The notes beneath the pieces are model-generated. The model was not told the origin of the DNA. It saw only the letters and a list, made by a program, of their open reading frames with translations, and made no database searches. Below, in pieces: positions 892 to 64,000 of a DNA stretch of 64,000 nucleotides. Made by a program: the position numbers and the translations under genes. This DNA comes from an uncultured virus (IMG/VR IMGVR_UViG_3300021197_000193) (Duplodnaviria; Heunggongvirae; Uroviricota; Caudoviricetes): the IMG/VR virus record IMGVR_UViG_3300021197_000193, positions 1 through 64,000 of that record, one strand, 5' to 3'. Each line of letters begins with the position of its first letter. The first letter of the stretch is position 1.

Positions 892-908
892 TTTAGGGAA
901 GTCCCTAA
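892..908. promoter_or_regulatory. TTTAGGGA-NN-TCCCTAA(A) palindrome, copy 1
   Basis: tttagggaagtccctaa; overlaps stop codon of 905..1681 and lies upstream of the 1..845 RBS. Confidence 0.8.
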
Positions 909-2667: not shown

Positions 2668-3896
2668 TATAAATCCTCCGATTGTACATGCACCGTCACA
2701 CCGTGATCGGGCTTGGCGTTCTTGTTATCCACGATCACCCACAGCACAGGATGATCCCACGTACCCCAACCATTGTAGAGGTAGCCATCTGTAAACACGA
2801 TAGAGGCTTGCGGCTTGATGTTATGCTCGCGCATATACTCAGGCACACAACACACATCAGTGCCGCCACCACCCACAGGGTTCGTCTTGGATGCCACGGT
2901 ATCCAGTTCGTCGTTGGTATACTTCTCATACCCACAGACTTTCGTGTCCCAATAACTTACGTGCAATTCTTCGGGCTTGACCGCTTCACAGATACCAACC
3001 AACTCGCTAATCATTATCTGCTGTTCACGTTTACCGATAGAGCCAGACATATCGTTGTGTTCTGCAATGCACGTAACTTGTTCTGAGATACCGCTAGGCA
3101 TGTAGATACCAGTTCCTATGTAACGCCTGTTAGGTTTCTTCCACGTCGAGTAATCTTTACCTGCGCACGTTGTTTGCACAAACTCACGCAGCACCTCGCG
3201 CCAATCCACCTTGGGCTTCAGCAATTCTTCCATGTCACGATTGCCACCGCTGCCCATTTTACCTGCAACCAGTGAGCCTTGACGTATGGCCTCGTCCACC
3301 TCGCGTTGTATCTCACGCTGCTCGTCGGGCGTCATGTCTTGTGCGCCTTCCCAATCGTGATCGTCGAACCCTTGGGGATGTCCATCGTCACACTCTGGAC
3401 ATACATCTTCACACATACACTTGCCACGGCCACCGCCGCCGCCATCTTCTTCTTTGTAGATATCCCAGAAGATTTTAGCTGTACCCCACCCCTTGTACTT
3501 GGGGTCATAGCATCCACCCTTGGGCATCGTGACCCAACCATCTTGGCCATACTCGTCAATGATCTTGCCATTGATATCGTAGTCCATTGCGATGTTGGCA
3601 GTGCGCGGACATATCTTCCACAGGTGTGCCCACGTTACCAAGTGACGATACATCTTGTGAAACACCTCATGTATCACGACGAACCGTAGCTCTGGATCGT
3701 TATGTGCAAACACGAACCCTCTACCGTACCATTCGTCACGTCCGTTGGTACAGGCTGTTGGCACCGTGTCATCAATCGTACGTTCACCGATCATCAGCAA
3801 CCCCGATATCTCAGGGATGCGTGGCATGATATCAACGACCGCTTTGGACAGCCGTTGTTCTTCCGTTAGTTGTTTACCTATTGCTAACATTGTCAT
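2667..3896 (-). CDS. DUF2201-type metallopeptidase / vWA-like protein
   Basis: PTACTNG, HEVFH (HExxH), NIAMDYDIN, MIDAS-like DMSGS, GGGGTD, FTDGY; adjacent to an AAA ATPase. Confidence 0.85.
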   Translation of the reverse strand: MTMLAIGKQLTEEQRLSKAVVDIMPRIPEISGLLMIGERTIDDTVPTACTNGRDEWYGRGFVFAHNDPELRFVVIHEVFHKMYRHLVTWAHLWKICPRTANIAMDYDINGKIIDEYGQDGWVTMPKGGCYDPKYKGWGTAKIFWDIYKEEDGGGGGRGKCMCEDVCPECDDGHPQGFDDHDWEGAQDMTPDEQREIQREVDEAIRQGSLVAGKMGSGGNRDMEELLKPKVDWREVLREFVQTTCAGKDYSTWKKPNRRYIGTGIYMPSGISEQVTCIAEHNDMSGSIGKREQQIMISELVGICEAVKPEELHVSYWDTKVCGYEKYTNDELDTVASKTNPVGGGGTDVCCVPEYMREHNIKPQASIVFTDGYLYNGWGTWDHPVLWVIVDNKNAKPDHGVTVHVQSEDL

Positions 3897-3902
3897 TCTC
3901 CA

Positions 3903-3919
3903 TTTAGGGAGTTCCCTAA
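3903..3919. promoter_or_regulatory. Palindrome copy 2
   Basis: tttagggagttccctaa directly upstream (minus strand) of GGAGAATGACAATG. Confidence 0.85.
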
Positions 3920-5020: not shown

Positions 5021-5038
5021 TTGTCATTCTCCAGTTTG

Positions 5039-5056
5039 TTTAGGGACTTCCCTAAA
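5039..5056. promoter_or_regulatory. Palindrome copy 3
   Basis: tttagggacttccctaaa upstream of the AAA gene RBS. Confidence 0.85.
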
Positions 5057-6151: not shown

Positions 6152-6169
6152 TTTAGGGAGTTCCCTAAA
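6152..6169. promoter_or_regulatory. Palindrome copy 4
   Basis: tttagggagttccctaaa; flanks match copy 3 (ctccagtttg...tggtt). Confidence 0.85.
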
Positions 6170-6662: not shown

Positions 6663-6680
6663 TTTAGGGAGTTCCCTAAA
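6663..6680. promoter_or_regulatory. Palindrome copy 5
   Basis: tttagggagttccctaaa between the promoter at 6746-6774 and the first RBS. Confidence 0.85.
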
Positions 6681-7089: not shown

Positions 7090-7264
7090 GTGACGCGAGG
7101 CGCTGATGGGATACTGGTATCAGATCATTTAGGGAGTTCCCTAAACGTGGGGGGCTATGCGCTAACCCCAACGTCACATAACATTCTATGGCGATGCGTG
7201 GCGCTACTGGGATACTGGTATCAATCTGCGGTGACGCGTAACGCTACTGGGATACTGGTATCAA
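7090..7264 (+). repeat. Three ~33-bp direct repeats with GATAC-TG-GTATC core
   Basis: Copies at 7090-7122, 7191-7224 and 7231-7264 (G[TC]GA[CT]GCG..CGCT...GGGATACTGGTATCA). Confidence 0.85.
7128..7145. promoter_or_regulatory. Palindrome copy 6
   Basis: tttagggagttccctaaa, intergenic, between repeat units 1 and 2. Confidence 0.85.
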
Positions 7265-8261: not shown

Positions 8262-8279
8262 TTTAGGGACTTCCCTAAA
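8262..8279. promoter_or_regulatory. Palindrome copy 7
   Basis: tttagggacttccctaaa in the divergent early/late intergenic region. Confidence 0.85.
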
Positions 8280-16746: not shown

Positions 16747-16802
16747 ATGTTTATCCCTGACAGCTACGTGGTGTAGCTGACCAACCCAGACAGGAGATCG
16801 AC

Positions 16803-17273
16803 ATGGGTACAACTACTTTTTCCGGTCCTATTCGGGCAGGCAACATCCGTAACACTAATGGCACTACCGTAGGCTCTGATGTAGCCAATGTAGGATATGT
16901 TGTTATGGCTCAAGCGCACACAGCAGACCTATCAGGCGGCGCACTTACAGCTTCTGTTACAAACATTGTTATTCCAGCTAACTCCAAAATCGTAAACATT
17001 GTGGTCGATATGGAGACAGCAGCTAATGCAACTTCAAATATTAGCGTTGGACAACAAGGCGGTAACAACAATACGTTCATCAACGCGCTTGCTTCGGGTA
17101 CAACTGCGGGGCTAAAAACTATCACGACCCAAGGTGGTGGTACATTGGCGTGGAAAAACACAGGCACATCCGACCTTCGTTTGACTGTTACCACAAGCGC
17201 AGCAACTAACGCAGGTTCTGCCGTAATCACTGTAATGTATTGCCAAGCGTTTAATACAGCAGTCCAACCGTAA
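16803..17273 (+). CDS. Putative virion structural protein
   Basis: Beta-rich, follows capsid gene; AGGAG RBS. Confidence 0.65.
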   Translation: MGTTTFSGPIRAGNIRNTNGTTVGSDVANVGYVVMAQAHTADLSGGALTASVTNIVIPANSKIVNIVVDMETAANATSNISVGQQGGNNNTFINALASGTTAGLKTITTQGGGTLAWKNTGTSDLRLTVTTSAATNAGSAVITVMYCQAFNTAVQP

Positions 17274-47734: not shown

Positions 47735-50700
47735 ATGGCACTGTACCAATTAACTGACCGCCGCGGGAACAAAATACAGGTAGAAGGCCCAGAAGGCGCT
47801 ACCACAGAACAACTTGTGTCAATATACAACCGCACGATGGTAGAGCGCAGGCGCGAACCAGAACGTAGGTTCCGTGCAGGGTTGGAAGATTATTTCGGTA
47901 CGCAAGAAAACATAGCGGAGCAGATAGCGCGTAGTAGAAAACCTACGGTGGGCGACTATTTTGGTGAAGTTCCAAAAGGTCTTATTGGCGGCGCTGCGGG
48001 GTTAGTAGAACAGGGCGCGTTAGGTCTTGCGGCATTACTACCAGAAGATGCAGAAAATGTTGTCCGTGATGGGATAAAATCTGTGGGCGGCGCGGTGCAA
48101 GATTATGTAGCCCCAGACTTTAACTTAGAAGATAGCATCCCCCGCAAACTTAGCGAAGCAGGTGGTTCTTTTGCGGGTCTTGTTGGTGCGTCTCTTATAA
48201 ACCCTATAGCAGGGGGCACATTGGCGGTAGCCGCGGGGTCTGGAGAAGCTAGCGAACGTGCGCGAGCCGCAGGTGCTACACAGGAACAACGTAACCTAGC
48301 AGCGTTACAGGGTATACTCCCGGGCGCACTTGAGCTTATCCCTGTAGGACGTTTAGTCAAAGGGATTAAACAAGTATATAAGGGTGAAGCTAAACCCGTC
48401 GAACTTATAAAGAACCGCATCCAACGTGCATCGCGCGAAGGTGGTATAGAAGCCGCGCAAGAAGTTGCGTCTGGTATTGCCCAAAACATGATAGAGCAGG
48501 GGTACAACCCCGAGCAAGGTACGTTTGAAGGTAGCGGAGAAGCCGCAGGGTACGGCGGTGCCGTAGGGTTTTTAGCGCAAAGCCTGCTTGACCTTGCTAC
48601 ACCTAGAACCCGTGGCAGTGCGGCAGATGTAGAACCAGAAGAAACACTTGCTTTACCTGCACCGGACACAGGTATTGCGGGGCTTTTACCTGCACCACCA
48701 AAACAACTTGCCGACCAACGTAAACCTTTGGGTAATGCGCAAGCTCGCGCAGATGTAGGCAGAATAATTGATTCTACAGGGGATGTAACCCTTGGAGAGA
48801 TGGAAGACATTGTAGCGCGAACAGGTATATCTCTGCCTGACCTTGAAACTGTTGTTTCTGAAGAAATGCAGAAACGTGGCACTAAGCTAGCGCAACGTGC
48901 GCAAGAAGAAATCGAAGATGAGCTTACTACTCCAGAAGTAGAACGCCCACCGTCCCGTATGGACACCGCTGTAGCAGATGCGTTGGCAGGTAGAAACGCA
49001 GTGCAAGAGGCAGCACGCAGACGTGAAGAACAAGCTGCATTAGAACGTGACGATGTAGCCGCGTACGAGCAACCCGACCTGTTAGCCGCAGAATTAGAAG
49101 CGGAACGTAAAATATCACCAGAGGCTGCGGCACAAGATGCAGCGCGTCCTGCACCGCCGAACGTGGAGCTAGATGAACAAGGTAAAGTACGAGAAATAAA
49201 AGAAGAAGAAGTTTTACCAATACAGGGGCCACGAAGACGTGACCTTGTAGATTTAATAAGTGAAGAAAGTGCACTTGCTAAAGAAATTGAAGCGGAAGAA
49301 ACGGTAAAACGTCAGCAAGAGCAAACAAGGGCCGAGTCTACCGCGGAAACCGCGCAGGGTAAATTAGACGCAGATCGTGCAGCGCAAACCGAAGCTACGC
49401 GCACCAAAGTGTTGCAGGACACAGTGGCTAATGCAGGCGAAGTACGTAGACCAGAAGCGTTGCGTAGGCTGTACGAAACCGCGTTGACAGAAGCGGGAAT
49501 TACAAACCCCAAAGCCACATCACAAGAAATGGAAAGCCTGCGCCGTGCGTCTAATGTCATACGGGCAAAAGACCCTGTAGCAGACGCCGCCGCCGCGCAA
49601 GAGGGAATCAAAGACCCAGCACAAGTAAAATTGGAAGCTATGGTAACTCCCAAAGAAAGGCGGCGAAATGTTAGACCAGTTGACCCAGAGACAGGTGGAG
49701 ATGGCGTTTCGTCTGCTGGACAAGGCAGTACAGTCGGAGCCGCCCCAACCGCTGCGAGTACCGCCAACATTACAGCACCTAACGACAGCGGAATGGGACG
49801 CCCTGTGTCTGGCGTTGGAGGAACTACTGCACCAGAAGGAGCGCAGTCAGATACACTAAATCTGGACGCAGCTATTTTAGAAGCTGTAACAGACCCTGAT
49901 CCTGTTACGCCTCCCGTAGAGCAGAAAAAACGGCCCGAGGCAGGACCCAAGTCAAAACGTGTTACACAGAAAACTAAACGTACGGATACCTCCGGTAGAC
50001 GTAAAGTATTACCTACGTTTCCAGAAAAACAAACACTTACAAAAGTATCGAAAGACCTGAAGCGCAGGGGTCCAGCGGGTTCGTCTGTTCGTGGTACTCG
50101 TAAAGTCCAAGCCAAAGAAGACACTACACGCGCCGAGCTACGTAAACGGTGGGATGAAACTGCGCCAGCCGTGGTCAAACAAGACACCCAGACCACAGAC
50201 ACTTTGGTCAAAGGCGATGTGCTATCGAATAGTGACAATAAGAAAACTCTAAACTTCTTGGAGGGTAAGGTTACTACCCGTGACAAGGTTGGGCTTGCCG
50301 CTAAACGCTACCTGTCTATGCACCCGAACCCAGAAGAAGGTTTGTTTGTAGCATTGTTCGATATGGTAAACCGCACGCCTAAGTTTTCTGGGCGTGAAAA
50401 AGGCATGACCGATGCGCAAGCCGAGTTACGCAAAGGTACAAGTGACGTGCAAGGCGCACGCGCTGTATACTGGGCCATGAACAACCTGAGTCCACAAACA
50501 CAGAAGTGGATGGACGAAACTAAAGCCGAGATACAAAAACAGTTAGATGCTGTTACGGGGTTAGACTACGCGGCGCGGACAGAATCACCTTTGACTATAC
50601 GACAACGCATAGAGAACGCTGCCCGTGCTATTAAAGAGCGCGAAGCGGTAACAGTGAAGACGGGAGTTACAGTTCAGACATCAGAAGCTGTAGAAGCTAT

Positions 50701-53700
50701 GCCTGAAGGTCAGTACAGACCCCGTAGAAAAACAGGCAAGACTGCGTATGAAGCATATTTATCGGATCAGTACACCGCCGAAGAACGCAAAGCTATTGCC
50801 AAAGACGATGACCTTGCGCTTAAAACATACGCAGACTTTGAGTTTCTACAGAAGCAAGGATTTGCCCTAGAAAAAGACGCGGTGGTTGGGCTAGATGCGG
50901 CACCCCACCCTACAGTTATGCAGGCCATAAAACGTGGTGATCTTAAAGCCGCGCTTGCCGCACTAGCCAACACAAACGGTAACGCACAGGTGCGAGAGCT
51001 AGCCGCTAAGTTTGCCAATGTAGCAGGTGACACAAAACTTGTTATAGTGAAGAACCTGAAGGCCGAAGACGGACGCCCCGCTGCAGGATTGTTTGATCCT
51101 AAGACCAACACGATATCGCTAGACGCAGATACTGGTATCAACACGCACACGTTGATGCACGAAATGTCTCACGCAGGCATGTCAGCGGCATTGGCTGACC
51201 CTAAGAATGGGTTTGGTATTCAGCTTAAAAAGCTGTTCAAAGACTTGGATGGTCTGCTAGGTACAGCTTACGGCTCAAAAGACCCTGATGAATTTTTATC
51301 TGAGGCGATGAGCAATCCAGAGTTCCGATCAGAACTTGCAAGCATAAACCCAAAAGGCGAACCTGTTAGCGCACTGCAACGTTTCTTTAATATGGCTAAC
51401 AACTTTTTGAGTAGGTTTGTGCCGTTTATTAAATCTCGTAACCTGACCGCTTTGCAAGAAGTAGACAGTCTTGTAGATGCGTTGTTAGCCCCTGCACCCA
51501 TGTATCGTTACGCCAACCAGATGGCAATGATGACTACCGCCGATGGTGTTAGGAAGTTTACACGAGACGCAGTTGATGCAACGCAGAAGGCTATAAACAA
51601 AGAAAGCCGAGAGCAATTCAGGTTCAACGTGCGGGACTTCTTTACCCAAGGGTTCTCAAAGAAAACCAAAAACCTGCTACTTAAACTTACTGGCTCTCAA
51701 GGGTTAGGCGACATTGCGGAAGCAGTTGGCTTGGGCAGAATGGGCCACGATTTGGATGAGTTGATATCCAACCAACGAGGAGAAATCCAAACCGCAAACG
51801 AACTTATTAAAAGAAAGATCAAGGAAATCCTAACCAAGTTAAACAAGGGTACGGACGAGCAGGCGCAAAAACGCCGAGAAGCCTTAGATCGTTTGATCTA
51901 TGATAACGACTACGGTGCCACTATCTATCAGGTAGACCCTACAAAACCAAAGGGTACATACATTAACAAAGACGGTAGCCCTCGTATAGACAACGATGGC
52001 AATGATCTGTTGGAGGTATGGAACAAGCAACGTAAAGACTGGAAAGCATTAGGACCAGAGGGGCGAGCTGTATATAACGAGATGCGAGCAGTGTACAAAG
52101 GTCAGTACGAAAAGCTCAAAGCCGTTATCCTGAAACAGATTGACGAGTTGGTGCAGAACCCTGACGATGCTAAAAAACTGAAGAAGGACATCTTTGCCAG
52201 ATTGTTCGATGCTAGCACCCTAGATGTGTACTTCCCGCTTATGCGTGACGGTGATTACGTGCTACGTTATGAGGTCAAGAACCCTAAGTCGTCACGCGAA
52301 GCCACTGTGGTGCAGACATTTACTACAGACGCAGAACGTCAAGACGCTGCCAAGATGTTCCGAGCGAACAAAGACTATAAGAATGTAGAGATTGTTGACG
52401 AAGTGTCCGCGAACACCTTCAGGGGTACAGGCGTAGACCCAAGTTTTGCATACGAAGCCCTAAGTATTTTGGACAAAAACAAAGTCCCACAAGACGTAAA
52501 AGATCAGGTAATCAAACTGTTTATAAACTCGCTACCTGAGACATCGTTTGCCAAGTCATTGCAGAAACGTAAAGGCACCCCGGGGTACATGCAGGATTCT
52601 GTGTATGCTCTTAAGACAAAGGGCTACAGTCTTGCTAGTCAAACAGTCAAACTAAAATACGGGGCACTTTTGCGTCAGTATGAAGCTGACCTTGATACAT
52701 TACCCTTTAATGCGATGTTTAAAGTTCCAAAAGCAAAGAGCTTGGTAGGGAAGAACACGGAACGGCTTACCGCTGCGTTTGGTGATGTAAAGGCAGAATT
52801 AAAAGACCGTGCGCAGTTTGCACGAAAAGGCGCGGACAACAAAAGCATAGAAGCGGTAGCCCGTAGACTGAACCAGACCGCGTTTATATACACCATCGGC
52901 TTTAACGCATCGTCTGCTCTGGTCAACCTGTCGCAAATCCCGTTGTTCGTTGCCCCGTTTTTGGGCGGGAAACATGGGTACGTAAAAACGTACGCCGCTA
53001 TTAAATCTGCCTACGGTAATACATTACTGGGTGGTAAGCGTGGCGGCAAAACAAATTCAATACTAGATTTTTATGACATATCTGACAAAGGTACATTCAC
53101 CCTGAAAAAAGGTTTAGAGTTACCTGAAGGGAAAGAAGCCGAACTACGCAACATGACCGCCTTGGTGCAAACTGCATCTCAACGGGGCTTGTTGGGCCAA
53201 GGGTTCTTAGCAGAAGCTATGGGGTTGAACGAGACTAGCCGCATCAAAAAGGGCGGTAAAATAGGCAACGCTATGGACAATGCGTCCGTGCTATCCGCAT
53301 GGCTGTTTAACCACGCAGAACAACTTAACCGCCAAGTAACTTTAATGGCTTCGTTCAATCTAGCGTTGCAGGGCATAAAAATAAAAAACTACCTCGACAC
53401 TAACAAGTTAGACGACACTCCCGCCAATCGTACCAAGGCAGAAAAGAAAACGACTGGTAAAGACCCTAGCGAAGCACAAATAGAAGAAGCCGTGCGGCAA
53501 GCCATTTATGATACACAGCAAACAAACGGTGGCACGTTCTTGGAGACTGCCCCGAGTATTGCGCGGGAAGGTATCGGGCGCGTTGCGTTTATGTATAAAA
53601 ACTACGGCCTGCAAATGTACTACACCATGTTTAAGACCGCAAAGATTGCATTGGACAGTGATAAAGGTAGATTGTTTGGCCCAGAAGGGTCACCCGAACG

Positions 53701-54550
53701 TAAGGCCGCGGTAAAACAACTTATCGGTATGCACGGATCGGCGTTGTTTTTTGCAGGGGTACAAGGACTACCATTGTACGGCGCAGTAAAACTTATGGTT
53801 AACCTGTTCTTATTGGATGAGGAAGAGGAAGATTTTGATACAATCGTGCGACAGTATATGGGTGAGGGTTGGTATAAAGGCGCGATAACCCAGTTCGCAG
53901 GGATCGACGTGGCAGGGCGTATGGCGCTTACTGGACTTCTGATCCAAGAGAACCGCTATAACAACAACCCATCCCTAGAAGAAACAATCGGGTTCTACGC
54001 AGGTGGACCCGCACTTAGCGTTGCTAATCGTCTGTACCGTGGAGGTTCCGATTTACTGGCAGGGGAAACACAGCGTGGCATGGAAAGCATATTACCTGCA
54101 GGGGTGACCAACGCATACAGAGCAGCGTTTGGTAGGTATGCACAACAAGGCGGCGCGTTCACTAGACGTAACGACCCTATCTACGATGATGTTACCAATG
54201 GCGAATTACTGATGTGGGGGCTTGGGTTCCCTCCTACAGAATACACATTCCGTCAGGAACAAAACTCTATCACCAAACGTATAGACATCGCTGTAAACAA
54301 GAAACGATCCGCGCTAAACAAAAAATACTACGTTGCCTCGCGTATGGGAGATTACAGTGAGATGATGCAAGTCTATAAAGATATGCTTAAATTCAACAAG
54401 CGTCATCCAGAGGCTGCTATTACCCCAGAGTCCATAGATCGTTCCATGAAGCGCCACGCAGAGACTACGGAAAACATGCACAATGGCGCGTCGTTTAGCA
54501 CTACGTACGGTGCCGCAGTTCAAGACATACGGAACGCCTTCAAGCAATAA
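47735..54550 (+). CDS. Large polyvalent/ejection protein with zincin-like metallopeptidase
   Basis: 2271 aa; GLFDPKTNTISL...LMHEMSH...EFLSE (HExxH); YFPLMRDGDY (PLxRFG-like); hydrophobic helices near both ends; last gene of the virion module. Confidence 0.75.
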   Translation: MALYQLTDRRGNKIQVEGPEGATTEQLVSIYNRTMVERRREPERRFRAGLEDYFGTQENIAEQIARSRKPTVGDYFGEVPKGLIGGAAGLVEQGALGLAALLPEDAENVVRDGIKSVGGAVQDYVAPDFNLEDSIPRKLSEAGGSFAGLVGASLINPIAGGTLAVAAGSGEASERARAAGATQEQRNLAALQGILPGALELIPVGRLVKGIKQVYKGEAKPVELIKNRIQRASREGGIEAAQEVASGIAQNMIEQGYNPEQGTFEGSGEAAGYGGAVGFLAQSLLDLATPRTRGSAADVEPEETLALPAPDTGIAGLLPAPPKQLADQRKPLGNAQARADVGRIIDSTGDVTLGEMEDIVARTGISLPDLETVVSEEMQKRGTKLAQRAQEEIEDELTTPEVERPPSRMDTAVADALAGRNAVQEAARRREEQAALERDDVAAYEQPDLLAAELEAERKISPEAAAQDAARPAPPNVELDEQGKVREIKEEEVLPIQGPRRRDLVDLISEESALAKEIEAEETVKRQQEQTRAESTAETAQGKLDADRAAQTEATRTKVLQDTVANAGEVRRPEALRRLYETALTEAGITNPKATSQEMESLRRASNVIRAKDPVADAAAAQEGIKDPAQVKLEAMVTPKERRRNVRPVDPETGGDGVSSAGQGSTVGAAPTAASTANITAPNDSGMGRPVSGVGGTTAPEGAQSDTLNLDAAILEAVTDPDPVTPPVEQKKRPEAGPKSKRVTQKTKRTDTSGRRKVLPTFPEKQTLTKVSKDLKRRGPAGSSVRGTRKVQAKEDTTRAELRKRWDETAPAVVKQDTQTTDTLVKGDVLSNSDNKKTLNFLEGKVTTRDKVGLAAKRYLSMHPNPEEGLFVALFDMVNRTPKFSGREKGMTDAQAELRKGTSDVQGARAVYWAMNNLSPQTQKWMDETKAEIQKQLDAVTGLDYAARTESPLTIRQRIENAARAIKEREAVTVKTGVTVQTSEAVEAMPEGQYRPRRKTGKTAYEAYLSDQYTAEERKAIAKDDDLALKTYADFEFLQKQGFALEKDAVVGLDAAPHPTVMQAIKRGDLKAALAALANTNGNAQVRELAAKFANVAGDTKLVIVKNLKAEDGRPAAGLFDPKTNTISLDADTGINTHTLMHEMSHAGMSAALADPKNGFGIQLKKLFKDLDGLLGTAYGSKDPDEFLSEAMSNPEFRSELASINPKGEPVSALQRFFNMANNFLSRFVPFIKSRNLTALQEVDSLVDALLAPAPMYRYANQMAMMTTADGVRKFTRDAVDATQKAINKESREQFRFNVRDFFTQGFSKKTKNLLLKLTGSQGLGDIAEAVGLGRMGHDLDELISNQRGEIQTANELIKRKIKEILTKLNKGTDEQAQKRREALDRLIYDNDYGATIYQVDPTKPKGTYINKDGSPRIDNDGNDLLEVWNKQRKDWKALGPEGRAVYNEMRAVYKGQYEKLKAVILKQIDELVQNPDDAKKLKKDIFARLFDASTLDVYFPLMRDGDYVLRYEVKNPKSSREATVVQTFTTDAERQDAAKMFRANKDYKNVEIVDEVSANTFRGTGVDPSFAYEALSILDKNKVPQDVKDQVIKLFINSLPETSFAKSLQKRKGTPGYMQDSVYALKTKGYSLASQTVKLKYGALLRQYEADLDTLPFNAMFKVPKAKSLVGKNTERLTAAFGDVKAELKDRAQFARKGADNKSIEAVARRLNQTAFIYTIGFNASSALVNLSQIPLFVAPFLGGKHGYVKTYAAIKSAYGNTLLGGKRGGKTNSILDFYDISDKGTFTLKKGLELPEGKEAELRNMTALVQTASQRGLLGQGFLAEAMGLNETSRIKKGGKIGNAMDNASVLSAWLFNHAEQLNRQVTLMASFNLALQGIKIKNYLDTNKLDDTPANRTKAEKKTTGKDPSEAQIEEAVRQAIYDTQQTNGGTFLETAPSIAREGIGRVAFMYKNYGLQMYYTMFKTAKIALDSDKGRLFGPEGSPERKAAVKQLIGMHGSALFFAGVQGLPLYGAVKLMVNLFLLDEEEEDFDTIVRQYMGEGWYKGAITQFAGIDVAGRMALTGLLIQENRYNNNPSLEETIGFYAGGPALSVANRLYRGGSDLLAGETQRGMESILPAGVTNAYRAAFGRYAQQGGAFTRRNDPIYDDVTNGELLMWGLGFPPTEYTFRQEQNSITKRIDIAVNKKRSALNKKYYVASRMGDYSEMMQVYKDMLKFNKRHPEAAITPESIDRSMKRHAETTENMHNGASFSTTYGAAVQDIRNAFKQ

Positions 54551-54573
54551 AAATCCCCCGCGCGAGGCGGGGG
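54546..54573 (-). terminator. Rho-independent terminator of the minus-strand transcript
   Basis: Minus strand CCCCCGC-CTCGC-GCGGGGG followed by ATTTTTATT. Confidence 0.75.
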
Positions 54574-54612
54574 TAGTAGAGAGGAGAATGACAAGTATGT
54601 CGAGCTTGTCAT
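54548..54612 (-). ncRNA. Candidate anti-RBS small RNA
   Basis: 5' hairpin ATGACAAG/CTTGTCAT, single-stranded TCTCCTCTCTAC, then terminator; 12 nt complementary to the GGAGAATGACAA leaders. Confidence 0.4.
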
Positions 54613-54622
54613 GTATGATGTA

Positions 54623-54850
54623 TCACACTGTCCTCCATATGCGAACCCCAAACATACCATTTTCAATTCGGACCCGCGTTTCTGCGCCCCACTTTTTGCG
54701 TTGCGCTATATCTTGTAGTTGTTTTCGCGCCTTAATAATGTTGACGCACGGGATGAAAACAGACGCTCCAACCACCATATCATCCCAATTAACAACTATT
54801 TTTACTTGGTCTGGCGACAGATCATCAGTCTTCAGTGGTTTCTGATACAC
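54623..54850 (-). CDS. Hypothetical protein
   Basis: WDDMVVGASVFIP...GVRIWR; overlaps primase-helicase end. Confidence 0.7.
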   Translation of the reverse strand: MYQKPLKTDDLSPDQVKIVVNWDDMVVGASVFIPCVNIIKARKQLQDIAQRKKWGAETRVRIENGMFGVRIWRTV

Positions 54851-57623
54851 CGCTAAACCCCGTTAGTTTTACCGACAATGCCCATATAGCAGGTAAGTTA
54901 AAGTTCGTGCCCTTGCTTAACCGCATCTTAATACGTTTAGCCCCCATCTCTTTTTGCATACCTTCCACGGTGCTTGTGTAGTCTATTTTCTGTTCTCCAA
55001 GCCACGTCTTAAATGTCTTTGGTACAATATAAAGCATGTTTGTATCTGTCTCGTATCGTGCAACAAACATACCTCGGGGGTTCTGCTCGGGTATGACCAT
55101 GGGTGTAATACCTTCAGCGTTGGGCGCTTTCTCCGTGCTTTTAATTTTAAGTATGCTGCCCCAATGCTCGGTAGCAAATTCTGTGACTAATGTTTGTACC
55201 GACGCGGTGCTATCGTCTACGAACGCCTTGACCCTTATCAGTTGTCCTACCACCCACTTGAATAGCTTTTTCATGTCGTAATCTACTATGCCTGCACGTT
55301 TAGCGGCTAACGCTCCCACCAGTATGGCCGAACACCCACCAGACCAAAAACGGTTTTTCTGATCCAACCCTGCGGCCTTGTCTAACTCAGCTTTAATTTT
55401 TTCATAGTCCGCGACTATGGCTGTTTTATTTTGGATAACATACCGCACAAAGTCTGGGCCATAATGCCCGTAGTTGTTTTGTATGTCCTTGAACAACCCT
55501 GCGGATACAACGGGGTCTACTTTTACCATAGGTATTTCGTCCACCCGTAGCTCCAATAACCGCTGCATCTCCGCTTTAGTGTCGCCCTTCGCCATAGCCA
55601 TCTGCGCGTACATACTAACATTACCTGACGATAACGCTATCAAATGCCACGGCCTACCCCTAACACGTTCGTAGTTGCCGCCACCTGCCATCCGGTTCTT
55701 CTGCGTACCTTCTGATAGTTGGTATGCGTAATCAGATGCTTGCTTGCCATGAATGTTTGTCATTTCGTCTGTGTTCAGACCAAGGTTGTGCATGACCTCG
55801 GCAAAATTCATACGAGAGTTTGGGGTATCCCCTTTGGTGCCCGTAAGCCCACGCGGTTCGCCCCATATAGCGGTGCCCGTATACATAGCAGTTGTTTTAC
55901 CACCACCCGTCTCACCGAACAGATGGATACCTAAACTATACAAACCTGTTAGGGGCATGAGTATAGTGCCAAACCCTGCGCACACCGTGAACTGCTGTAA
56001 CTCCATACCGTCTTGATTGTAGAAGTCTAATATCTCTTTGTGCCGTTCTCTGGTGCCTTTAGGTTTGAACTTAACTATGTGCCCTGCGGTCTTACTAGAT
56101 GGTGGATTGTACTCCGCGCCATGTGCGGTAATAAGTTGGTCACCTAACACAAACTCATCCATAACTTCGTCGTCAACCCATCCAAATTGTTGGTGCGCCT
56201 CACTTGCTGTGGTGGTCTGCTGCAACTCTCGTATCCATGCCGCTGTGTATGCCATAAGTTTATCTACTTCCTTACCGTAAGTTACTATACCCTGCATGGA
56301 CATGTGCTTACGAAACTCTTCTCTGGACGTAACCGCAGATAGCGGCACTACAAAGTCGCGCACCCCGTCTCTTGGCAAGTGTAGCGCAAAAGCTATAACT
56401 TCTCCAAGCTCCACATCATGCAGTCTGCGCGTAACGTAAAAGTCATGGTGGTATATGCAAATTTCTTCGGGATCACCGTTATCATTTTCCCCTCTCAGGT
56501 ACACACCCCCATGCTGACCTCTAAAGTATGGACGTGGTAGCGCAGGTATAGCTACCTGTTTTTCGTCACCCCCAAACATATCTTCTGGTGCAGCCTCTTT
56601 AATTTCTTTTGTGAGTACCGCAGGTGTTGTTATCTTCCCCTTGTTAGGGCAACCTTCGCACCCTTCTGGGTTCAACCGCTCTATGGTGCTACAAAAATGC
56701 GGTCCCCCTGTGTCTTGCATTTTCTTCAAGGTGGCTTCCACGTTGTAGTCTGCATGACTAGCCGACATTATGTGCGCCGCTTCGTCCCCGTCCTCGCAGA
56801 CGTTAGCTATAGACAACCCTGCGCGCCACAAGTCATGCGATATGCTGTCCTGATGCTTTATTATGTGCTTGATCTGATTGCAGCCCGTACCGTTTTTTGT
56901 GCGTGTTATAAGCCGCTTAAAACTACCTTTATAGTTTTGGTACATGGCTTCTTTAAATGCGCTAACCGCAGATGTCTCGCGTTTCTGGGGTACTGGTATC
57001 GGGTCATCGCCAAGCAACACCGCAAACTGGTCAAAGTCCACGGTGGAAAAATCTTCTATGCCATAAAAATCTACGGGTAGCGGTGTCTCGTATTTGTGGT
57101 TGTAGGTACTTGGCACACGTAAAACACTAGCAGCATCAGATGTACGTGATGGGTCTACAGGAAAACCTTGTTCTTCACATAACCTCTTTAGTCGTGTCGC
57201 TACAGGAAACCAATCTTCTCTACACACAGGCGCGGACAATATCCAATAGACATGTACGCCACGCCCTGAGTTCACGAGTGTAGGTGTAGGCAGGCTGTTA
57301 TTTTCGCAGAAGGTGCGTAGTTCATCAATGGCGACTACCTGAGATGGAAATTCCTTATCGGGGCCGCAGTCTAAATCCAAGAAAAAAGACTTCATCCATT
57401 GCATATTTTTTGCGGTGCGCGAACTACTGTCAAAAAACGTACCCAAAGCAAAGAAAGCGTTCCACCCATTATCATTAAGGTTACGTGCTTCGTGCAGTAG
57501 GTCGTCTGTAGACAAGCAAAATGTTTGTTTAATCTGCTCGTTGGGTTTTACACCTTTGATGGCCCACACGCAATATTCGCCTTCGTGCGCTAGCACCAAG
57601 TCTAAAAAAGTTTTGGTTTTCAT
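54825..57623 (-). CDS. Primase-helicase (RepB/AEP-like primase + DUF927-like helicase)
   Basis: FFLDLDC, SGRGVHVYW, SVLRVPSTYN primase motifs; CEGC Zn site; Walker A GETGGGKTT, DEMT; start refined to MKTKTF (57623). Confidence 0.85.
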   Translation of the reverse strand: MKTKTFLDLVLAHEGEYCVWAIKGVKPNEQIKQTFCLSTDDLLHEARNLNDNGWNAFFALGTFFDSSSRTAKNMQWMKSFFLDLDCGPDKEFPSQVVAIDELRTFCENNSLPTPTLVNSGRGVHVYWILSAPVCREDWFPVATRLKRLCEEQGFPVDPSRTSDAASVLRVPSTYNHKYETPLPVDFYGIEDFSTVDFDQFAVLLGDDPIPVPQKRETSAVSAFKEAMYQNYKGSFKRLITRTKNGTGCNQIKHIIKHQDSISHDLWRAGLSIANVCEDGDEAAHIMSASHADYNVEATLKKMQDTGGPHFCSTIERLNPEGCEGCPNKGKITTPAVLTKEIKEAAPEDMFGGDEKQVAIPALPRPYFRGQHGGVYLRGENDNGDPEEICIYHHDFYVTRRLHDVELGEVIAFALHLPRDGVRDFVVPLSAVTSREEFRKHMSMQGIVTYGKEVDKLMAYTAAWIRELQQTTTASEAHQQFGWVDDEVMDEFVLGDQLITAHGAEYNPPSSKTAGHIVKFKPKGTRERHKEILDFYNQDGMELQQFTVCAGFGTILMPLTGLYSLGIHLFGETGGGKTTAMYTGTAIWGEPRGLTGTKGDTPNSRMNFAEVMHNLGLNTDEMTNIHGKQASDYAYQLSEGTQKNRMAGGGNYERVRGRPWHLIALSSGNVSMYAQMAMAKGDTKAEMQRLLELRVDEIPMVKVDPVVSAGLFKDIQNNYGHYGPDFVRYVIQNKTAIVADYEKIKAELDKAAGLDQKNRFWSGGCSAILVGALAAKRAGIVDYDMKKLFKWVVGQLIRVKAFVDDSTASVQTLVTEFATEHWGSILKIKSTEKAPNAEGITPMVIPEQNPRGMFVARYETDTNMLYIVPKTFKTWLGEQKIDYTSTVEGMQKEMGAKRIKMRLSKGTNFNLPAIWALSVKLTGFSGVSETTED

Positions 57624-57685
57624 TGTATCCGCCCATACCGTAAGAGTAACTACGGCCACCGTAGCAGCCGTAGTGTTTTGAGTTA

Positions 57686-58372: not shown

Positions 58373-58388
58373 ATCATTCTCCTTTTAT

Positions 58389-59020: not shown

Positions 59021-59050
59021 TAGTCATTCTCCTACTGTAACGAGAATTAC

Positions 59051-60619: not shown

Positions 60620-60637
60620 TTTAGGGAACTCCCTAAA
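60620..60637. promoter_or_regulatory. Palindrome copy 8
   Basis: tttagggaactccctaaa directly upstream of the helicase RBS (AGGAG). Confidence 0.85.
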
Positions 60638-63835: not shown

Positions 63836-64000
63836 TGTTTTCTCCTCTTGGCAAGTCATATTTTCTTTTTATGTTAGACGCTGTTTTTGGGCTTATACCC
63901 ATTATTTCCGCGATAGATTTCAACGTCATGCTACGTTTCAACATGCGGTCAACCATCTCAGCGTCTTTGGTCAACACCAACTTATTGGCTTCTTTCTTGG
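63792..64000 (-). CDS. HTH protein, partial
   Basis: LKSIAEIMGISPKTASNIK HTH; frame stays open to the window end. Confidence 0.55.
   Translation of the reverse strand, partial: KKEANKLVLTKDAEMVDRMLKRSMTLKSIAEIMGISPKTASNIKRKYDLPRGENNGEESKQSGKSLEV

What the first reader, a model, noticed from the sequence alone, without database searches (positions are those of the whole stretch)
54548..54650. Candidate sRNA antisense to the shared ribosome-binding leader of early genes
Seen: on the minus strand between the last replication gene and its terminator lies AUGACAAG-cucgacaua-CUUGUCAU-UCUCCUCUCUACUA-terminator. Its UUGUCAUUCUCC is the exact 12-nt complement of the GGAGAAUGACAA leaders of the AAA (5020) and vWA (3896) genes; it also pairs over 11 nt with the 59020 leader (AGGAGAAUGAC), 10 nt with the ssb leader (AGGAGAAUGA), and imperfectly with the leaders at 6134, 1681 and 845. 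A weak promoter (TTCGCA-N17-TACATC with extended TG) lies just upstream. Inference: a ~65-nt trans-acting RNA with an exposed anti-SD toehold that shuts off early/replication gene translation.
Basis: partly seen in the sequence, partly recalled or inferred. Interest (0 to 1): 0.8.

Follow-up and report, generated by a model that had tools for sequence, protein, structure and literature searches.

The report
Conserved phage small RNA with anti-ribosome-site seed
A family of uncultured marine phages carries, at the tail of its early-gene strand, what looks like a conserved ~65-base small RNA gene whose exposed stretch can pair with the ribosome-binding sites of the phage's own early genes, but no expression data exist yet.

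Summary
On the minus strand, p75 stop (54623) is followed by hairpin, UCUCC tract and the region's only intrinsic terminator. UUGUCAUUCUCC (54594..54583) exactly complements two early leaders.

It is not a plus-strand RBS. The minus-strand 75-aa gene is the real one. The plus ORF is an antisense shadow with no conserved start.

The element is conserved down to ~43% primase identity (a clade at ~28% carries a seed variant). It has an extended -10-like TG-n-TAnnnT over the p75 stop codon (44 of 52 unique sequences), a fixed 6-nt gap, and a hairpin starting at the predicted +1. Then come a near-invariant YGUCGUUCUCC, predicted unpaired, and a terminator with compensatory changes. At least 120 IMG/VR contigs carry it; no Rfam family matches.

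Pairing beyond GGAG occurs in 20 of 135 early leaders and 0 of 111 late ones. The window's seed G-to-A change coincides with C-to-U in three orthologous leaders.

Best reading (about 0.5): an independently transcribed, OppZ-like or RegA-like anti-RBS sRNA repressing ssb and other early genes. There is no expression evidence. Two clades lack long matches, and the covariation rests on one lineage.

The parts
54623..54850 (-). p75: conserved 75-aa protein of unknown function. It is the last gene of the minus-strand early/replication operon, and its stop codon TGA (54625..54623) lies inside the promoter-like element.
   Evidence: A full-length homologue follows the primase in all relatives that have downstream sequence. 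Pairwise difference by codon position is 0.216/0.133/0.47. Mean identity is 0.714, against 0.637 for the antisense frame, which carries 4 stops in 29 sequences. There is no Pfam or PHROG hit. The AF2 model has pLDDT 86.6 with no PDB match at E<=0.001.
54640..54645 (-). -35-like hexamer TTCGCA, 17 nt upstream of the -10-like hexamer, inside p75 codons.
   Evidence: A 4-of-6 match to TTGACA at 16-18 nt spacing is present in 37 of 54 unique relatives. This cannot be separated from coding constraint.
54617..54627 (-). Extended -10-like element TGTG-A-TACATC, overlapping the p75 stop codon.
   Evidence: Across 52 unique protein-anchored relatives, the stop codon is always TGA followed by TA (52 of 52). 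The hexamer fits TAnnnT in 44 of 52, with all three middle bases variable. It also fits in 29 of 32 further pattern-derived sequences where this base was not imposed. The window is one of the 8 exceptions (C at -7), and the consensus scan finds no promoter here.
54610..54610 (-). Predicted transcription start: the G at the base of the 5' hairpin, 7 nt after the hexamer.
   Evidence: The base 7 nt after the hexamer is G in 46 of 52 sequences, and the next bases are GACAA or GACAG in 43 of 52. The start is inferred; no 5'-end data exist.
54588..54612 (-). 5' hairpin. The core stem is GACAAG/CUUGUC (54610..54605 with 54595..54590). In the window it extends to 8 bp (AUGACAAG/CUUGUCAU), with a 9-nt loop.
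   Evidence: Fold. In relatives the loop varies in sequence and length (7 to about 70 nt), while the stem stays anchored at +1 and abuts the seed. Pair 5 is AU in 25, GC in 14, GU in 4 and other in 8 of 51. G.U pairs occur only in the minus-strand sense. All 17 of the 51 predicted RNAs whose structures were printed show this hairpin, and the mean unpaired probability of its 3' arm is 0.03 over all 51.
54583..54594 (-). Seed or anti-leader UUGUCAUUCUCC. It is the exact complement of GGAGAAUGACAA. The 3' seven bases are single-stranded and the rest lie in the 3' arm of the hairpin.
   Evidence: exact complement. (Y)GUCGUUCUCC is nearly invariant in relatives with primase identity from 99% down to 42%. 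Only the window and L001 have A at 54589. The mean unpaired probability of GUUCUCC is 0.86, and at least 0.7 in 42 of 51.
54574..54582 (-). Variable pyrimidine-rich linker (UCUCUACUA) between seed and terminator.
   Evidence: It is variable in sequence and length in alignment A1.
54546..54573 (-). Rho-independent terminator: a 7-bp GC stem (54573..54555) plus AUUUUUAUU. The U-tract overlaps the stop codon of the convergent late gene.
   Evidence: the only terminator found, on the minus strand. Compensatory stem changes appear in relatives: CCCCCGCC/GGCGGGGG, CCCCCAUC/GAUGGGGG, CCCCCGAC/GUCGGGGG and CCCCUGCC/GGCAGGGG.
47735..54550 (+). Convergent last late-strand gene (2271 aa, LPD39 domain). 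It ends 4 nt before the terminator stem.
5021..5032 (-). Candidate target: leader of the AAA ATPase gene (GGAGAAUGACAA-AUG, start 5020).
   Evidence: The cofold net energy is -12.9 kcal/mol.
3890..3901 (-). Candidate target: leader of the 407-aa vWA-like gene (GGAGAAUGACA-AUG, start 3890).
   Evidence: The cofold net energy is -18.7 kcal/mol.
58373..58384 (-). Candidate target: leader of the Gp2.5-like ssb gene (AAGGAGAAUGAU-GUG, start 58372).
   Evidence: The cofold net energy is -13.2 kcal/mol. In 17 of 29 relative rows this leader contains GGAGAACGACA, the exact complement of their seed.
59021..59032 (-). Candidate target: leader of the 133-aa gene (AGGAGAAUGACUA-AUG, start 59020).
   Evidence: 11 contiguous pairs.

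Best explanation
The segment is a small-RNA gene on the minus (early) strand, tucked between the stop codon of the last early gene (p75) and the operon's terminator. The RNA is about 64 nt in the window (54610 to about 54547) and 62-116 nt in relatives.

It probably starts at the G that opens a 5' hairpin. Transcription would come from an extended -10 promoter that overlaps the p75 stop codon, and read-through early transcripts would carry the same element at their 3' end.

Between the hairpin and the terminator lies an exposed, family-invariant stretch: GUUCUCC plus the adjacent UGUC of the hairpin arm. This stretch is complementary to the Shine-Dalgarno-plus-spacer sequence GGAGAAYGACA used by a subset of the phage's own early genes. 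In the window these are ssb, the AAA ATPase, the vWA-like protein, and the 133-aa and 100-aa proteins.

The proposed action is base pairing across these ribosome-binding sites. Pairing would start at the single-stranded UUCUCC and extend into the hairpin arm. It would lower translation of those early genes as the RNA accumulates, giving negative feedback on the early operon. This is an RNA counterpart of what RegA protein does in T4 and what OppZ does for its own operon in Vibrio.

Shown here: the anatomy, its conservation, the strand, the complementarity and its restriction to early leaders. Inferred: the transcription start, the existence of a discrete RNA, pairing in vivo, and the direction of the effect (repression).
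For: (1) Strand and anatomy. The only intrinsic terminator is on the minus strand. The RNA folds as a 5' hairpin, an open tract and a terminator, with z = -4.58.

(2) It is non-coding. p75 is the real gene and the plus ORF is not conserved.

(3) Purifying selection on a non-coding 11-mer. TGTCGTTCTCC is nearly invariant in 31 close sequences while loops and linker vary. It is kept in relatives with primase identity of only 42-48%.

(4) Promoter signature. TGA-TA is present in 52 of 52 sequences. TAnnnT is present in 44 of 52, and in 29 of 32 further sequences where that base was not imposed. There is a fixed 6-nt gap, and G at the predicted +1 in 46 of 52.

(5) Structure. The hairpin is anchored at +1 with AU/GC alternation at pair 5 (25/14). 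G.U pairs occur only in the minus sense. The terminator stem shows compensatory changes. The seed is predicted unpaired, with mean probability 0.86 over 51 RNAs.

(6) Specificity of the architecture. At least 120 viral contigs match the pattern, and 111 of 120 have a p75 homologue beside it. The same pattern gives 104 matches in 596 Gb of prokaryotic genomes, with 0 of 104 having p75 or a terminator.

(7) Targets. Among GGAG-led genes of seven genomes, pairing that extends at least 6 nt beyond GGAG occurs in 20 of 135 early-strand leaders and 0 of 111 late-strand leaders. The ssb leader contains the exact complement GGAGAACGACA in 17 of 29 relative rows. In 30 of 37 close loci at least one early leader pairs over 9 or more nt.

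(8) Covariation. The window and L001 have seed A where all others have G. Three orthologous leaders (ssb, g59020, g64654) have U where most relatives have C. L004 and L010 have seed G with ssb U, a G.U pair that RNA pairing tolerates.

(9) Energetics. Predicted net cofold energies after opening the hairpin are -18.7 (vWA-like), -13.2 (ssb) and -12.9 (AAA) kcal/mol.
Against: No transcript evidence exists. The four RNA runs laid are low-depth unstranded contigs and say nothing about a discrete RNA.

The window's own hexamer is TACATC, and the consensus scan finds no promoter there.

The close-set stem is almost invariant, so the formal covariation score is no better than shuffles: 0.170 against 0.166, with 202 of 500 shuffles as high.

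Long seed-leader matches are missing in genome G003 (0 of 22 early leaders extend 6 or more nt) and in the most distant clade G011 (maximum extension 3 of 27 leaders, contig 88% complete). Within +/-5 kb of the primase, only 5 of 20 distant loci show such a leader.

Per-genome early-versus-late tests are significant in 4 of 7 genomes only (p = 0.0013, 0.006, 0.011, 0.072, 0.107, 0.010, 0.203).

Early leaders sit in repeated intergenic cassettes, so they are not independent observations.

The A-variant seed exists in one lineage only: 1 family member among 15 pattern matches. The covariation is therefore one evolutionary episode. It is equally expected if one factor reads the same motif in all copies.

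The seed is far more conserved than any single leader, which could mean its main partner is something else, such as a host RNA or a protein.
Confidence: 0.5

Rival explanations
1. This is a cis-acting 3'-end element of the early polycistronic mRNA with no trans function. The hairpin, the pyrimidine tract and the terminator would together stabilise the 3' end, tune termination, or fold back on the same transcript (for example onto the ssb ribosome-binding site 3.8 kb upstream). The TG-n-TAnnnT conservation would reflect a processing or stop-codon context rather than a promoter.
For: The element shares the operon's terminator and would be present on every full-length early transcript. There is no TSS evidence. 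The window's hexamer is non-consensus. ssb, the most constant match in close relatives, lies in the same transcription direction two genes upstream. RNAalifold also finds a local pairing of the seed with GGAGAAC in the last p75 codons.
Against: Simple 3' stabilisers do not need an invariant single-stranded 11-mer. The local pairing is broken in the window (C-A) and absent in distant relatives, whose p75 ends TGGCGTAAA. T-12, A-11 and T-7 are conserved while the three bases between them vary, there is a fixed 6-nt gap to the hairpin, and the stop codon is invariably TGA. This is the pattern of a -10 element. Matching leaders also occur far away on what must be other transcripts or distant parts of the operon, such as AAA and vWA-like at 3.9-5 kb.
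Confidence: 0.2
2. The RNA is real, but its conserved seed serves another partner: a host mRNA or RNA, or an RNA-binding protein. One version has a phage translational repressor that recognises GGAGAAYGACA in leaders, with the junction copy as an unrelated or decoy site. The match to phage leaders would then be secondary.
For: The seed is invariant over a divergence at which individual leaders change freely, and the best-matching leader differs between clades: ssb in close relatives, AAA- or vWA-like genes in G006 and G008. G003 and G011 have no long leader match although the seed is kept. Covariation in one lineage fits 'same motif, same reader' as well as pairing does.
Against: A reader of GGAGAAYGACA would see the junction copy only on the plus strand, downstream of the hairpin and beyond the late gene. 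The G.U pairs, the U-tract and the promoter-like element all point to the minus strand, where the sequence is the complement. L004 and L010 combine seed G with leader U, which breaks motif identity but keeps RNA pairing. The host is unknown, so no host target could be tested. The architecture pattern gives only chance-level hits in prokaryotic genomes.
Confidence: 0.2
3. It is the ribosome-binding site of a plus-strand gene starting at 54588 or 54597 (85 or 82 aa, antisense to p75). The hairpin might bring the Shine-Dalgarno sequence close to ATG 54611, as in T4 gene 38 (recalled, not tested).
For: GGAG at 54583-54586 is followed by ATG at spacing 1 and 10 nt, and the frame is open to 54845. 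In 20 of 31 relatives some ATG, GTG or TTG lies 3-14 nt after GGAG.
Against: ATG 54588 is ACG in every relative except L001. In 11 of 31 relatives there is no start codon in range, and the resulting ORFs vary from 2 to 89 aa. The plus frame shares third codon positions with p75, so it stays open passively. It still has 4 stops in 29 sequences, and lower identity (0.637 against 0.714) and BLOSUM score (2.93 against 3.96) than p75. The position-1-over-position-2 substitution pattern fits p75, not the plus frame. An ATG directly after the hairpin is present in only 10 of 31 sequences. The plus frame has no PHROG hit.
Confidence: 0.03
4. The complementarity is a chance resemblance between a terminator-proximal pyrimidine tract and Shine-Dalgarno sequences.
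For: Any CUCC-containing tract pairs with any GGAG leader. With G.U allowed, 10-nt matches abound on both strands (416 early and 207 late hits in 57 loci).
Against: There are three exact 12-mers, and 14 near-matches against 4.16 expected. The 11-mer is invariant in at least 120 contigs. Extension of 6 or more nt beyond GGAG occurs in 20 of 135 early leaders against 0 of 111 late ones.
Confidence: 0.02

Closest known systems
OppZ and CarZ of Vibrio cholerae: autoregulatory sRNAs from the 3' end of a polycistronic operon. Source: passages of review PMC9438474; the primary paper PMC7398697 was seen only in a search listing and abstract.
   Same: The RNA sits at the 3' end of an operon and shares its terminator. 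It has a short conserved seed. The seed pairs with a ribosome-binding region inside the same operon (here ssb, two genes upstream), which would give negative feedback once the operon has been fully transcribed.
   Different: OppZ is made by RNase E processing and has one target. Here a conserved promoter-like element suggests a primary transcript, several leaders match (some far from the element), and the genome is a phage. Hfq dependence and Rho-dependent termination could not be tested.
c4 antisense RNA of phages P1 and P7, and sar RNA of P22. Source: passages of review PMC12197685.
   Same: These are phage-encoded RNAs that block translation of a phage gene by pairing around its ribosome-binding site. 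c4 acts on a target encoded elsewhere on the same transcription unit.
   Different: c4 and sar control one gene (ant) in temperate phages as part of immunity. sar is a true cis-antisense RNA. The present RNA has no sequence or Rfam similarity to them, lies at a convergent early/late junction, and matches several replication-type early genes.
T4 RegA translational repressor, and gp32 autoregulation. Source: passages of review PMC3014915.
   Same: The proposed function is the same: competition with the ribosome at the initiation regions of a set of early or middle mRNAs. An ssDNA-binding protein is among the controlled genes.
   Different: RegA and gp32 are proteins, and RegA sites are AU-rich and include the AUG. 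Here the proposed effector is an RNA, and recognition is of the SD-plus-spacer sequence GGAGAAYGACA.
3'-UTR sRNAs with their own promoter inside the upstream coding sequence (DapZ or MicL type). The classification is recalled; review PMC9438474 was read in passages only.
   Same: The promoter overlaps the end of the upstream ORF, the terminator is shared with the mRNA, and a conserved seed lies just downstream of the stop codon. The review names this last feature as a hallmark.
   Different: Those are bacterial, Hfq-dependent, and regulate unrelated regulons. No transcription start has been mapped here.

Membership tests
Trans-acting base-pairing sRNA gene (own promoter, Rho-independent terminator, conserved seed) | Own promoter giving a primary transcript | tested here: inconclusive
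   TG-n-TAnnnT is conserved: TA in 52 of 52, T-7 in 44 of 52 and in 29 of 32 further sequences, and G at +1 in 46 of 52. The window's hexamer is TACATC, the consensus scan finds no promoter, and no 5'-end data exist.
Trans-acting base-pairing sRNA gene (own promoter, Rho-independent terminator, conserved seed) | Rho-independent terminator at the 3' end | tested here: met
   A 7-bp GC stem plus U-tract lies on the minus strand only. Compensatory stem changes occur in relatives.
Trans-acting base-pairing sRNA gene (own promoter, Rho-independent terminator, conserved seed) | Strongly conserved 8-10-nt single-stranded seed (criterion as worded in PMC9438474) | tested here: met
   (Y)GUCGUUCUCC is nearly invariant. 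The mean unpaired probability of GUUCUCC is 0.86 in 51 predicted RNAs. The four 5' bases of the 11-mer lie in the hairpin arm.
Trans-acting base-pairing sRNA gene (own promoter, Rho-independent terminator, conserved seed) | Discrete stable RNA detectable in vivo | tested here: inconclusive
   Only low-depth, unstranded contigs of four RNA runs were available.
Trans-acting base-pairing sRNA gene (own promoter, Rho-independent terminator, conserved seed) | Regulation of targets through seed pairing; chaperone (Hfq or ProQ) dependence | not testable with these tools
   Only in-silico complementarity and energies are available. The host is unknown.
3'-end-derived autoregulatory sRNA (OppZ/CarZ type) | Located at the 3' end of a polycistronic operon and shares its terminator | tested here: met
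   The element lies between the last minus-strand ORF stop (54623) and the terminator. The operon structure itself is inferred from gene order.
3'-end-derived autoregulatory sRNA (OppZ/CarZ type) | Pairs with a ribosome-binding region inside its own operon | tested here: inconclusive
   In silico this is met for ssb in the window (10 Watson-Crick pairs) and in 17 of 29 relative rows (exact 11-mer). It is not met in G003 or G011. No in-vivo evidence exists.
3'-end-derived autoregulatory sRNA (OppZ/CarZ type) | Released by RNase E processing | not testable with these tools
   No end-mapping data exist. The promoter-like element suggests a primary transcript instead.
Any described RNA family (Rfam 15), including phage c4 antisense RNA (that c4 has an Rfam model is recalled) | Match to the family covariance model at its gathering score | tested here: not met
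   The whole-window scan finds only Mu-gpT-DE at 16755-16805. A permissive scan of 54400-54800 gives four matches at 11.6-16.4 bits, far below gathering scores of 33-56.
Ribosome-binding site of a plus-strand protein gene | Conserved start codon at working distance, and a coding-type substitution pattern in the plus frame | tested here: not met
   There is no start codon in 11 of 31 relatives, and ORFs vary from 2 to 89 aa. The substitution pattern and conservation favour p75 on the opposite strand.

The most novel reading that the evidence does not exclude
A whole family of uncultured marine phages encodes an autonomous small RNA that works as an RNA version of T4 RegA. It would be transcribed from a host-type extended -10 promoter at the tail of the early operon. 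Its invariant seed would clamp the SD-plus-spacer of ssb and other early and replication genes. This would give dosage-dependent negative feedback that times or balances early protein synthesis, with leaders and seed co-evolving through G.U intermediates. It would be the first multi-target, self-directed anti-RBS sRNA described in a non-temperate-type phage lineage, and a new RNA family.
Probability: 0.4. Interest if true: 0.78.

Novelty: new variant of a known kind. Interest (0 to 1): 0.62.

Why it matters
Functionally understood phage-encoded base-pairing RNAs are few. According to the review read here in passages (PMC12197685), they mostly come from temperate phages or prophages. They either guard a single immunity gene (c4, sar) or act on host genes.

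A conserved sRNA aimed at a phage's own early ribosome-binding sites would add RNA-based translational feedback to the ways phages schedule gene expression. Until now that role has been assigned to proteins such as RegA and gp32 (PMC3014915).

The element is defined well enough to seed a new RNA family. It has a promoter, a hairpin, an 11-nt seed and a terminator, and occurs in at least 120 contigs. It also makes a sharp, cheap prediction: compensatory mutations at one seed/leader base pair. That can be tested in a heterologous reporter system even though the host is unknown.

My two literature searches for such a case listed none. This claim rests on those listings and on passages of one review, not on an exhaustive reading.

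Tried and rejected
(a) A DNA search of the region against 50,697 phage records found no match. Protein searches show only distant cultured relatives: primase 27.7% to Pseudomonas phage Rollin, and portal about 44% to phage 023Pt_psg01 and Pelagibacter phage HTVC027P. No annotated reference exists.

(b) Expression. The look-up of sequencing runs gave marine RNA libraries kept as contigs. Laying four of them gave scattered 150-390-nt contigs at depth 2-7 on both strands, with no information on ends or strand. No verdict.

(d) RNAalifold on the MAFFT alignment missed the 5' hairpin because the loop indels were misaligned. It proposed seed pairing with GGAGAAC in the last p75 codons instead. I rejected this. 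It is broken in the window and in L001, weakened in 9 of 31 sequences (CGA or CGT arginine codon), and absent in distant relatives (TGGCGTAAA).

(e) count of structure pairs on the close set gave 90% paired, but a covariation score no better than shuffles because the stem hardly varies. Anchored tallies on the wider set were used instead.

(f) A contiguous-pairing scan allowing G.U was too permissive to be useful (416 early and 207 late hits). It was replaced by GGAG-anchored extension.

(g) A 14-mer scan for the C-variant seed gave 113 matches, none in the family.

(h) The architecture-pattern scan of prokaryotic genomes gave 104 chance-level matches, with 0 having p75 or a terminator, so it gave no host clue.

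(i) The A-variant pattern gave 15 matches, only 1 in the family and that one is the L001 contig. There is no independent lineage with which to repeat the covariation test.

(j) The C-variant pattern gave 10 matches, 3 of them family members (L036, L516, L521). The 88%-complete genome G011 has the seed GUCGUCGCUCUCC but no early leader extending more than 3 nt beyond GGAG. The single GGAGAGCGGC site lies inside an ORF.

(k) p75 function. There is no Pfam or PHROG hit. The AF2 model is confident (pLDDT 86.6), Foldseek finds no PDB match at E<=0.001, and the Atlas neighbours are viral hypothetical proteins. Whether p75 is functionally tied to the RNA is open.

(l) I considered a lambda nut-like (boxA/boxB) antitermination site from memory only. 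The order of hairpin and linear motif is reversed, and nothing lies downstream on that strand to antiterminate into. Not tested.

Full report
**Setting.** The window is bases 1-64000 of a 65,104-bp phage record. Early and replication genes lie on the minus strand, at 9280 down to 1 and at 64000 down to 54623. They include a D5-like primase-helicase, a Gp2.5-like SSB, a helicase, an AAA ATPase and a vWA-like protein. Late genes lie on the plus strand from 9015 to 54550. The finding sits at the convergent junction of the two blocks. No close relative is in the phage record collection. Protein searches find only distant cultured relatives: primase 27.7% to Pseudomonas phage Rollin, and portal about 44% to phage 023Pt_psg01 and Pelagibacter phage HTVC027P. 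IMG/VR holds many uncultured relatives.

**The observation.** After the TGA of the last minus-strand ORF (54625..54623), the minus strand reads UACAUCAUAC-AUGACAAG-CUCGACAUA-CUUGUCAU-UCUCCUCUCUACUA-CCCCCGC-CUCGC-GCGGGGG-AUUUUUAUUG. As RNA it folds into the two hairpins described, at -22.7 kcal/mol with z = -4.58. The scan tool finds one terminator here, on the minus strand only. GGAGAATGACAA occurs exactly at 3890-3901(-), 5021-5032(-) and 54583-54594(+). With up to 2 mismatches there are 14 matches against 4.16 expected, and 0 of 100 shuffles reach 14. In the leaders the 12-mer is a GGAG Shine-Dalgarno plus a 7-8-nt spacer, and the start codon follows it.

**Coding or not.** The plus strand has an open frame from 54588 to 54845, antisense to the 75-aa minus-strand ORF p75. 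The two frames share third codon positions, so the plus frame stays open passively.
- Across 29 distinct relatives the pairwise difference by p75 codon position is 0.216, 0.133 and 0.47. This is the pattern expected if p75 is the coding frame.
- p75 has higher identity than the plus frame (0.714 against 0.637) and a higher BLOSUM score (3.96 against 2.93). The plus frame carries 4 stops.
- ATG 54588 is ACG in all relatives except L001. In 11 of 31 relatives no ATG, GTG or TTG lies 3-14 nt after GGAG, and the resulting ORFs vary from 2 to 89 aa.
- An ATG right after the hairpin occurs in 10 of 31 sequences.

**Conservation of the element.** In 31 distinct close relatives (primase identity 64-99%), the loop, the linker and the region after the stop codon vary freely. 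In contrast, TGTGATA, GACAAG...CTTGTC and above all TGTCGTTCTCC are invariant or nearly so. The terminator stem changes by compensatory pairs.

A profile search brought in relatives with 42-48% primase identity. They have the same layout:
- p75 stop TGA followed by TA.
- Ten variable bases.
- A hairpin opening with GACAG or GAYRG and closing with CUGUC, with loops up to about 70 nt.
- Then GUUCUCC, a linker and a terminator.

In 596 Gb of prokaryotic genomes the same pattern gives 104 matches, about what chance predicts. None of them has p75 or a terminator. No Rfam family matches.

**Promoter signature.** I anchored 52 distinct sequences on the p75 stop codon.
- The stop codon is always TGA and is always followed by TA.
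- The hexamer starting at that TA fits TAnnnT in 44 of 52, with all three middle positions variable.
- Six variable bases follow.
- The next base is G in 46 of 52, and it opens the hairpin.

In 32 further sequences found by the pattern, which did not fix that base, T-7 is present in 29. TG-n-TAnnnT is the extended -10 consensus (established knowledge). The predicted start is therefore the first base of the hairpin, 54610 in the window. A -35-like TTCGCA at 17 nt is present in 37 of 54 sequences, but it lies in conserved codons. The window itself has TACATC and fails the tool's consensus scan. The start is inferred, not shown.

**Structure and strand.** I folded the 51 distinct predicted RNAs, which are 62-116 nt long with a median of 75. 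The 17 structures I printed, from close and distant clades and including the window, all show a 5' hairpin from +1 whose 3' arm ends at the seed. Over all 51, that arm's mean unpaired probability is 0.03. GUUCUCC has a mean unpaired probability of 0.86, and at least 0.7 in 42 of 51.

Anchored pair tallies show alternation at pair 5: AU in 25, GC in 14, GU in 4 and other in 8. GAUGG/CCGUC and GACAAA/UUUGUC variants also occur. G.U pairs (GACAGG/CUUGUC, GACAAG/CUUGUU, and U.G at the stem extension in 21 of 30 sequences) are pairs only in the minus-strand sense.

On the close set alone the formal covariation score equals that of shuffles, because the stem hardly varies. Together with the one-sided U-tract, these data place the functional molecule on the minus strand.

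**Targets.** For every GGAG-led ORF, I measured how far pairing with the genome's own seed extends beyond GGAG, allowing G.U. I did this in seven complete or large genomes.
- Extension of 6 or more nt occurs in 20 of 135 early-strand leaders and 0 of 111 late-strand leaders.
- Per-genome one-sided Mann-Whitney p values are 0.0013, 0.006, 0.011, 0.072, 0.107, 0.010 and 0.203.

In the window the best leaders are those of a 100-aa gene (start 64654, outside the window), ssb, the vWA-like gene, the AAA gene and the 133-aa gene. Predicted net cofold energies, after paying for hairpin opening, are -18.7 (vWA-like), -13.2 (ssb) and -12.9 (AAA) kcal/mol.

In close relatives the ssb leader is AGGAGAACGACA-UUG, the exact complement of their seed, in 17 of 29 rows. 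In 30 of 37 close loci at least one early leader pairs over 9 or more nt: ssb 29 times, the helicase 5 times and the 133-aa gene 4 times. In distant genomes G006 and G008, the leaders of AAA- and vWA-size genes carry GGAGAACGAC or GGAGAAUGACA.

**Covariation.** Only the window and its 99% twin L001 have A in the seed (UGUCAUUCUCC). In this lineage the leaders of ssb, the 133-aa gene and the 100-aa gene have U where most relatives have C. L004 and L010 combine seed G with ssb U, a G.U pair. A dedicated scan found no other family member with the A variant. This is therefore one evolutionary episode.

A clade with GCUCUCC exists (L036, L516, L521). Its 88%-complete genome G011 has GGAGAG in two early leaders but no extension beyond 3 nt. 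G003 also lacks long matches. These results count against a universal long-duplex requirement. A 7-9-nt interaction remains possible, and the review read here in passages gives 8-10 conserved bases as the typical seed (PMC9438474).

**Mechanism proposed.** I commit to the following reading at about 0.5. An independently transcribed small RNA, also present as the 3' tail of full-length early transcripts, uses its exposed UUCUCC as a toehold. It extends pairing into the hairpin arm to cover the SD-plus-spacer of ssb and other early genes. This lowers their translation as the RNA accumulates.

The closest described mechanisms are these:
- The 3'-end-derived autoregulatory sRNAs OppZ and CarZ (PMC9438474 passages).
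- The phage RNAs c4 and sar (PMC12197685 passages).
- The functionally analogous T4 protein RegA and the autoregulation of gp32 (PMC3014915 passages).

The rivals are these:
- A purely cis-acting 3'-end element (0.2).
- A real RNA whose conserved seed serves another partner, such as a host RNA or a protein (0.2).
- A plus-strand RBS (0.03).
- Chance (0.02).

**Limits.** There is no transcript evidence: the RNA runs available were unstranded low-depth contigs. The host is unknown. Early leaders belong to repeated intergenic cassettes, so the counts are not independent. Gene starts were called with a simple ORF-plus-GGAG rule in my scripts, not with a gene finder. Supplementary files of the papers were not consulted.

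**Verdict.** This is a real, conserved, minus-strand RNA element with the full anatomy of a small-RNA gene and a seed matched to early-gene ribosome-binding sites. It is a new RNA family and a new variant of a known regulatory kind. The regulatory function is plausible but untested.

Noticed in passing
window 894-907, 3905-3918, 5041-5054, 6154-6167, 6665-6678, 7130-7143, 8264-8277, 60622-60635: There are eight copies of a palindromic hairpin, TAGGGAAsTCCCTA, in early-strand intergenic spaces (16 strand-matches against 0.03 expected). Several sit 3-20 nt upstream of the GGAGAA leaders. In relatives G002 and G003 the same positions carry a different palindrome, TTCGGGCAnnTGCCCGAA, so the structure rather than the sequence is kept. 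They may be processing sites, attenuators or promoter-associated stem-loops of the early operon.
   Followed up: partly
window 16755-16805 (+): This is an Rfam Mu-gpT-DE RNA match (54.8 bits against a gathering score of 49, E = 6.6e-10). It lies just upstream of the ORF starting at 16803, in the structural gene block.
   Followed up: no
window 54623-54850 (-): p75 is a conserved 75-aa phage protein ending W-R-x-x. It is always the gene immediately upstream of the RNA element (111 of 120 contigs). There is no Pfam or PHROG hit. The AF2 model is confident (pLDDT 86.6, beta-alpha-beta-beta) with no PDB match at E<=0.001, and the Atlas neighbours are viral hypothetical proteins. Its constant linkage to the RNA raises the untested possibility of a functional tie, for example an RNA-binding partner.
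   Followed up: partly
window 47735-54550 (+): This is a 2271-aa late-strand protein with an LPD39 domain (residues 1394-1479) and an HEMSH zincin-like motif visible in the translation. Its C-terminal 200 residues are well conserved in one subgroup of relatives (61-99%) but only about 24-28% identical in another.
   Followed up: no
window 58372 and loci L003-L042: The ssb gene starts with GTG in the window and with TTG in most close relatives. The weak start codon sits directly after the leader that best matches the seed.
   Followed up: no
window 57623-57659 (-): The longest primase ORF starts at GTG 57659. Homology with relatives begins around residue 13-18, and an ATG at 57623 is the conserved start position.
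   Followed up: no
window 54551-54900 (+): No plus-strand terminator follows the late operon at the junction. The hairpin has an A-tract before it and no U-tract after it on the plus strand. Late transcription may therefore read through and produce RNA antisense to the small RNA, to p75 and to the primase. Only weak plus-strand terminator-like sites appear further on, at 55122-56559.
   Followed up: partly
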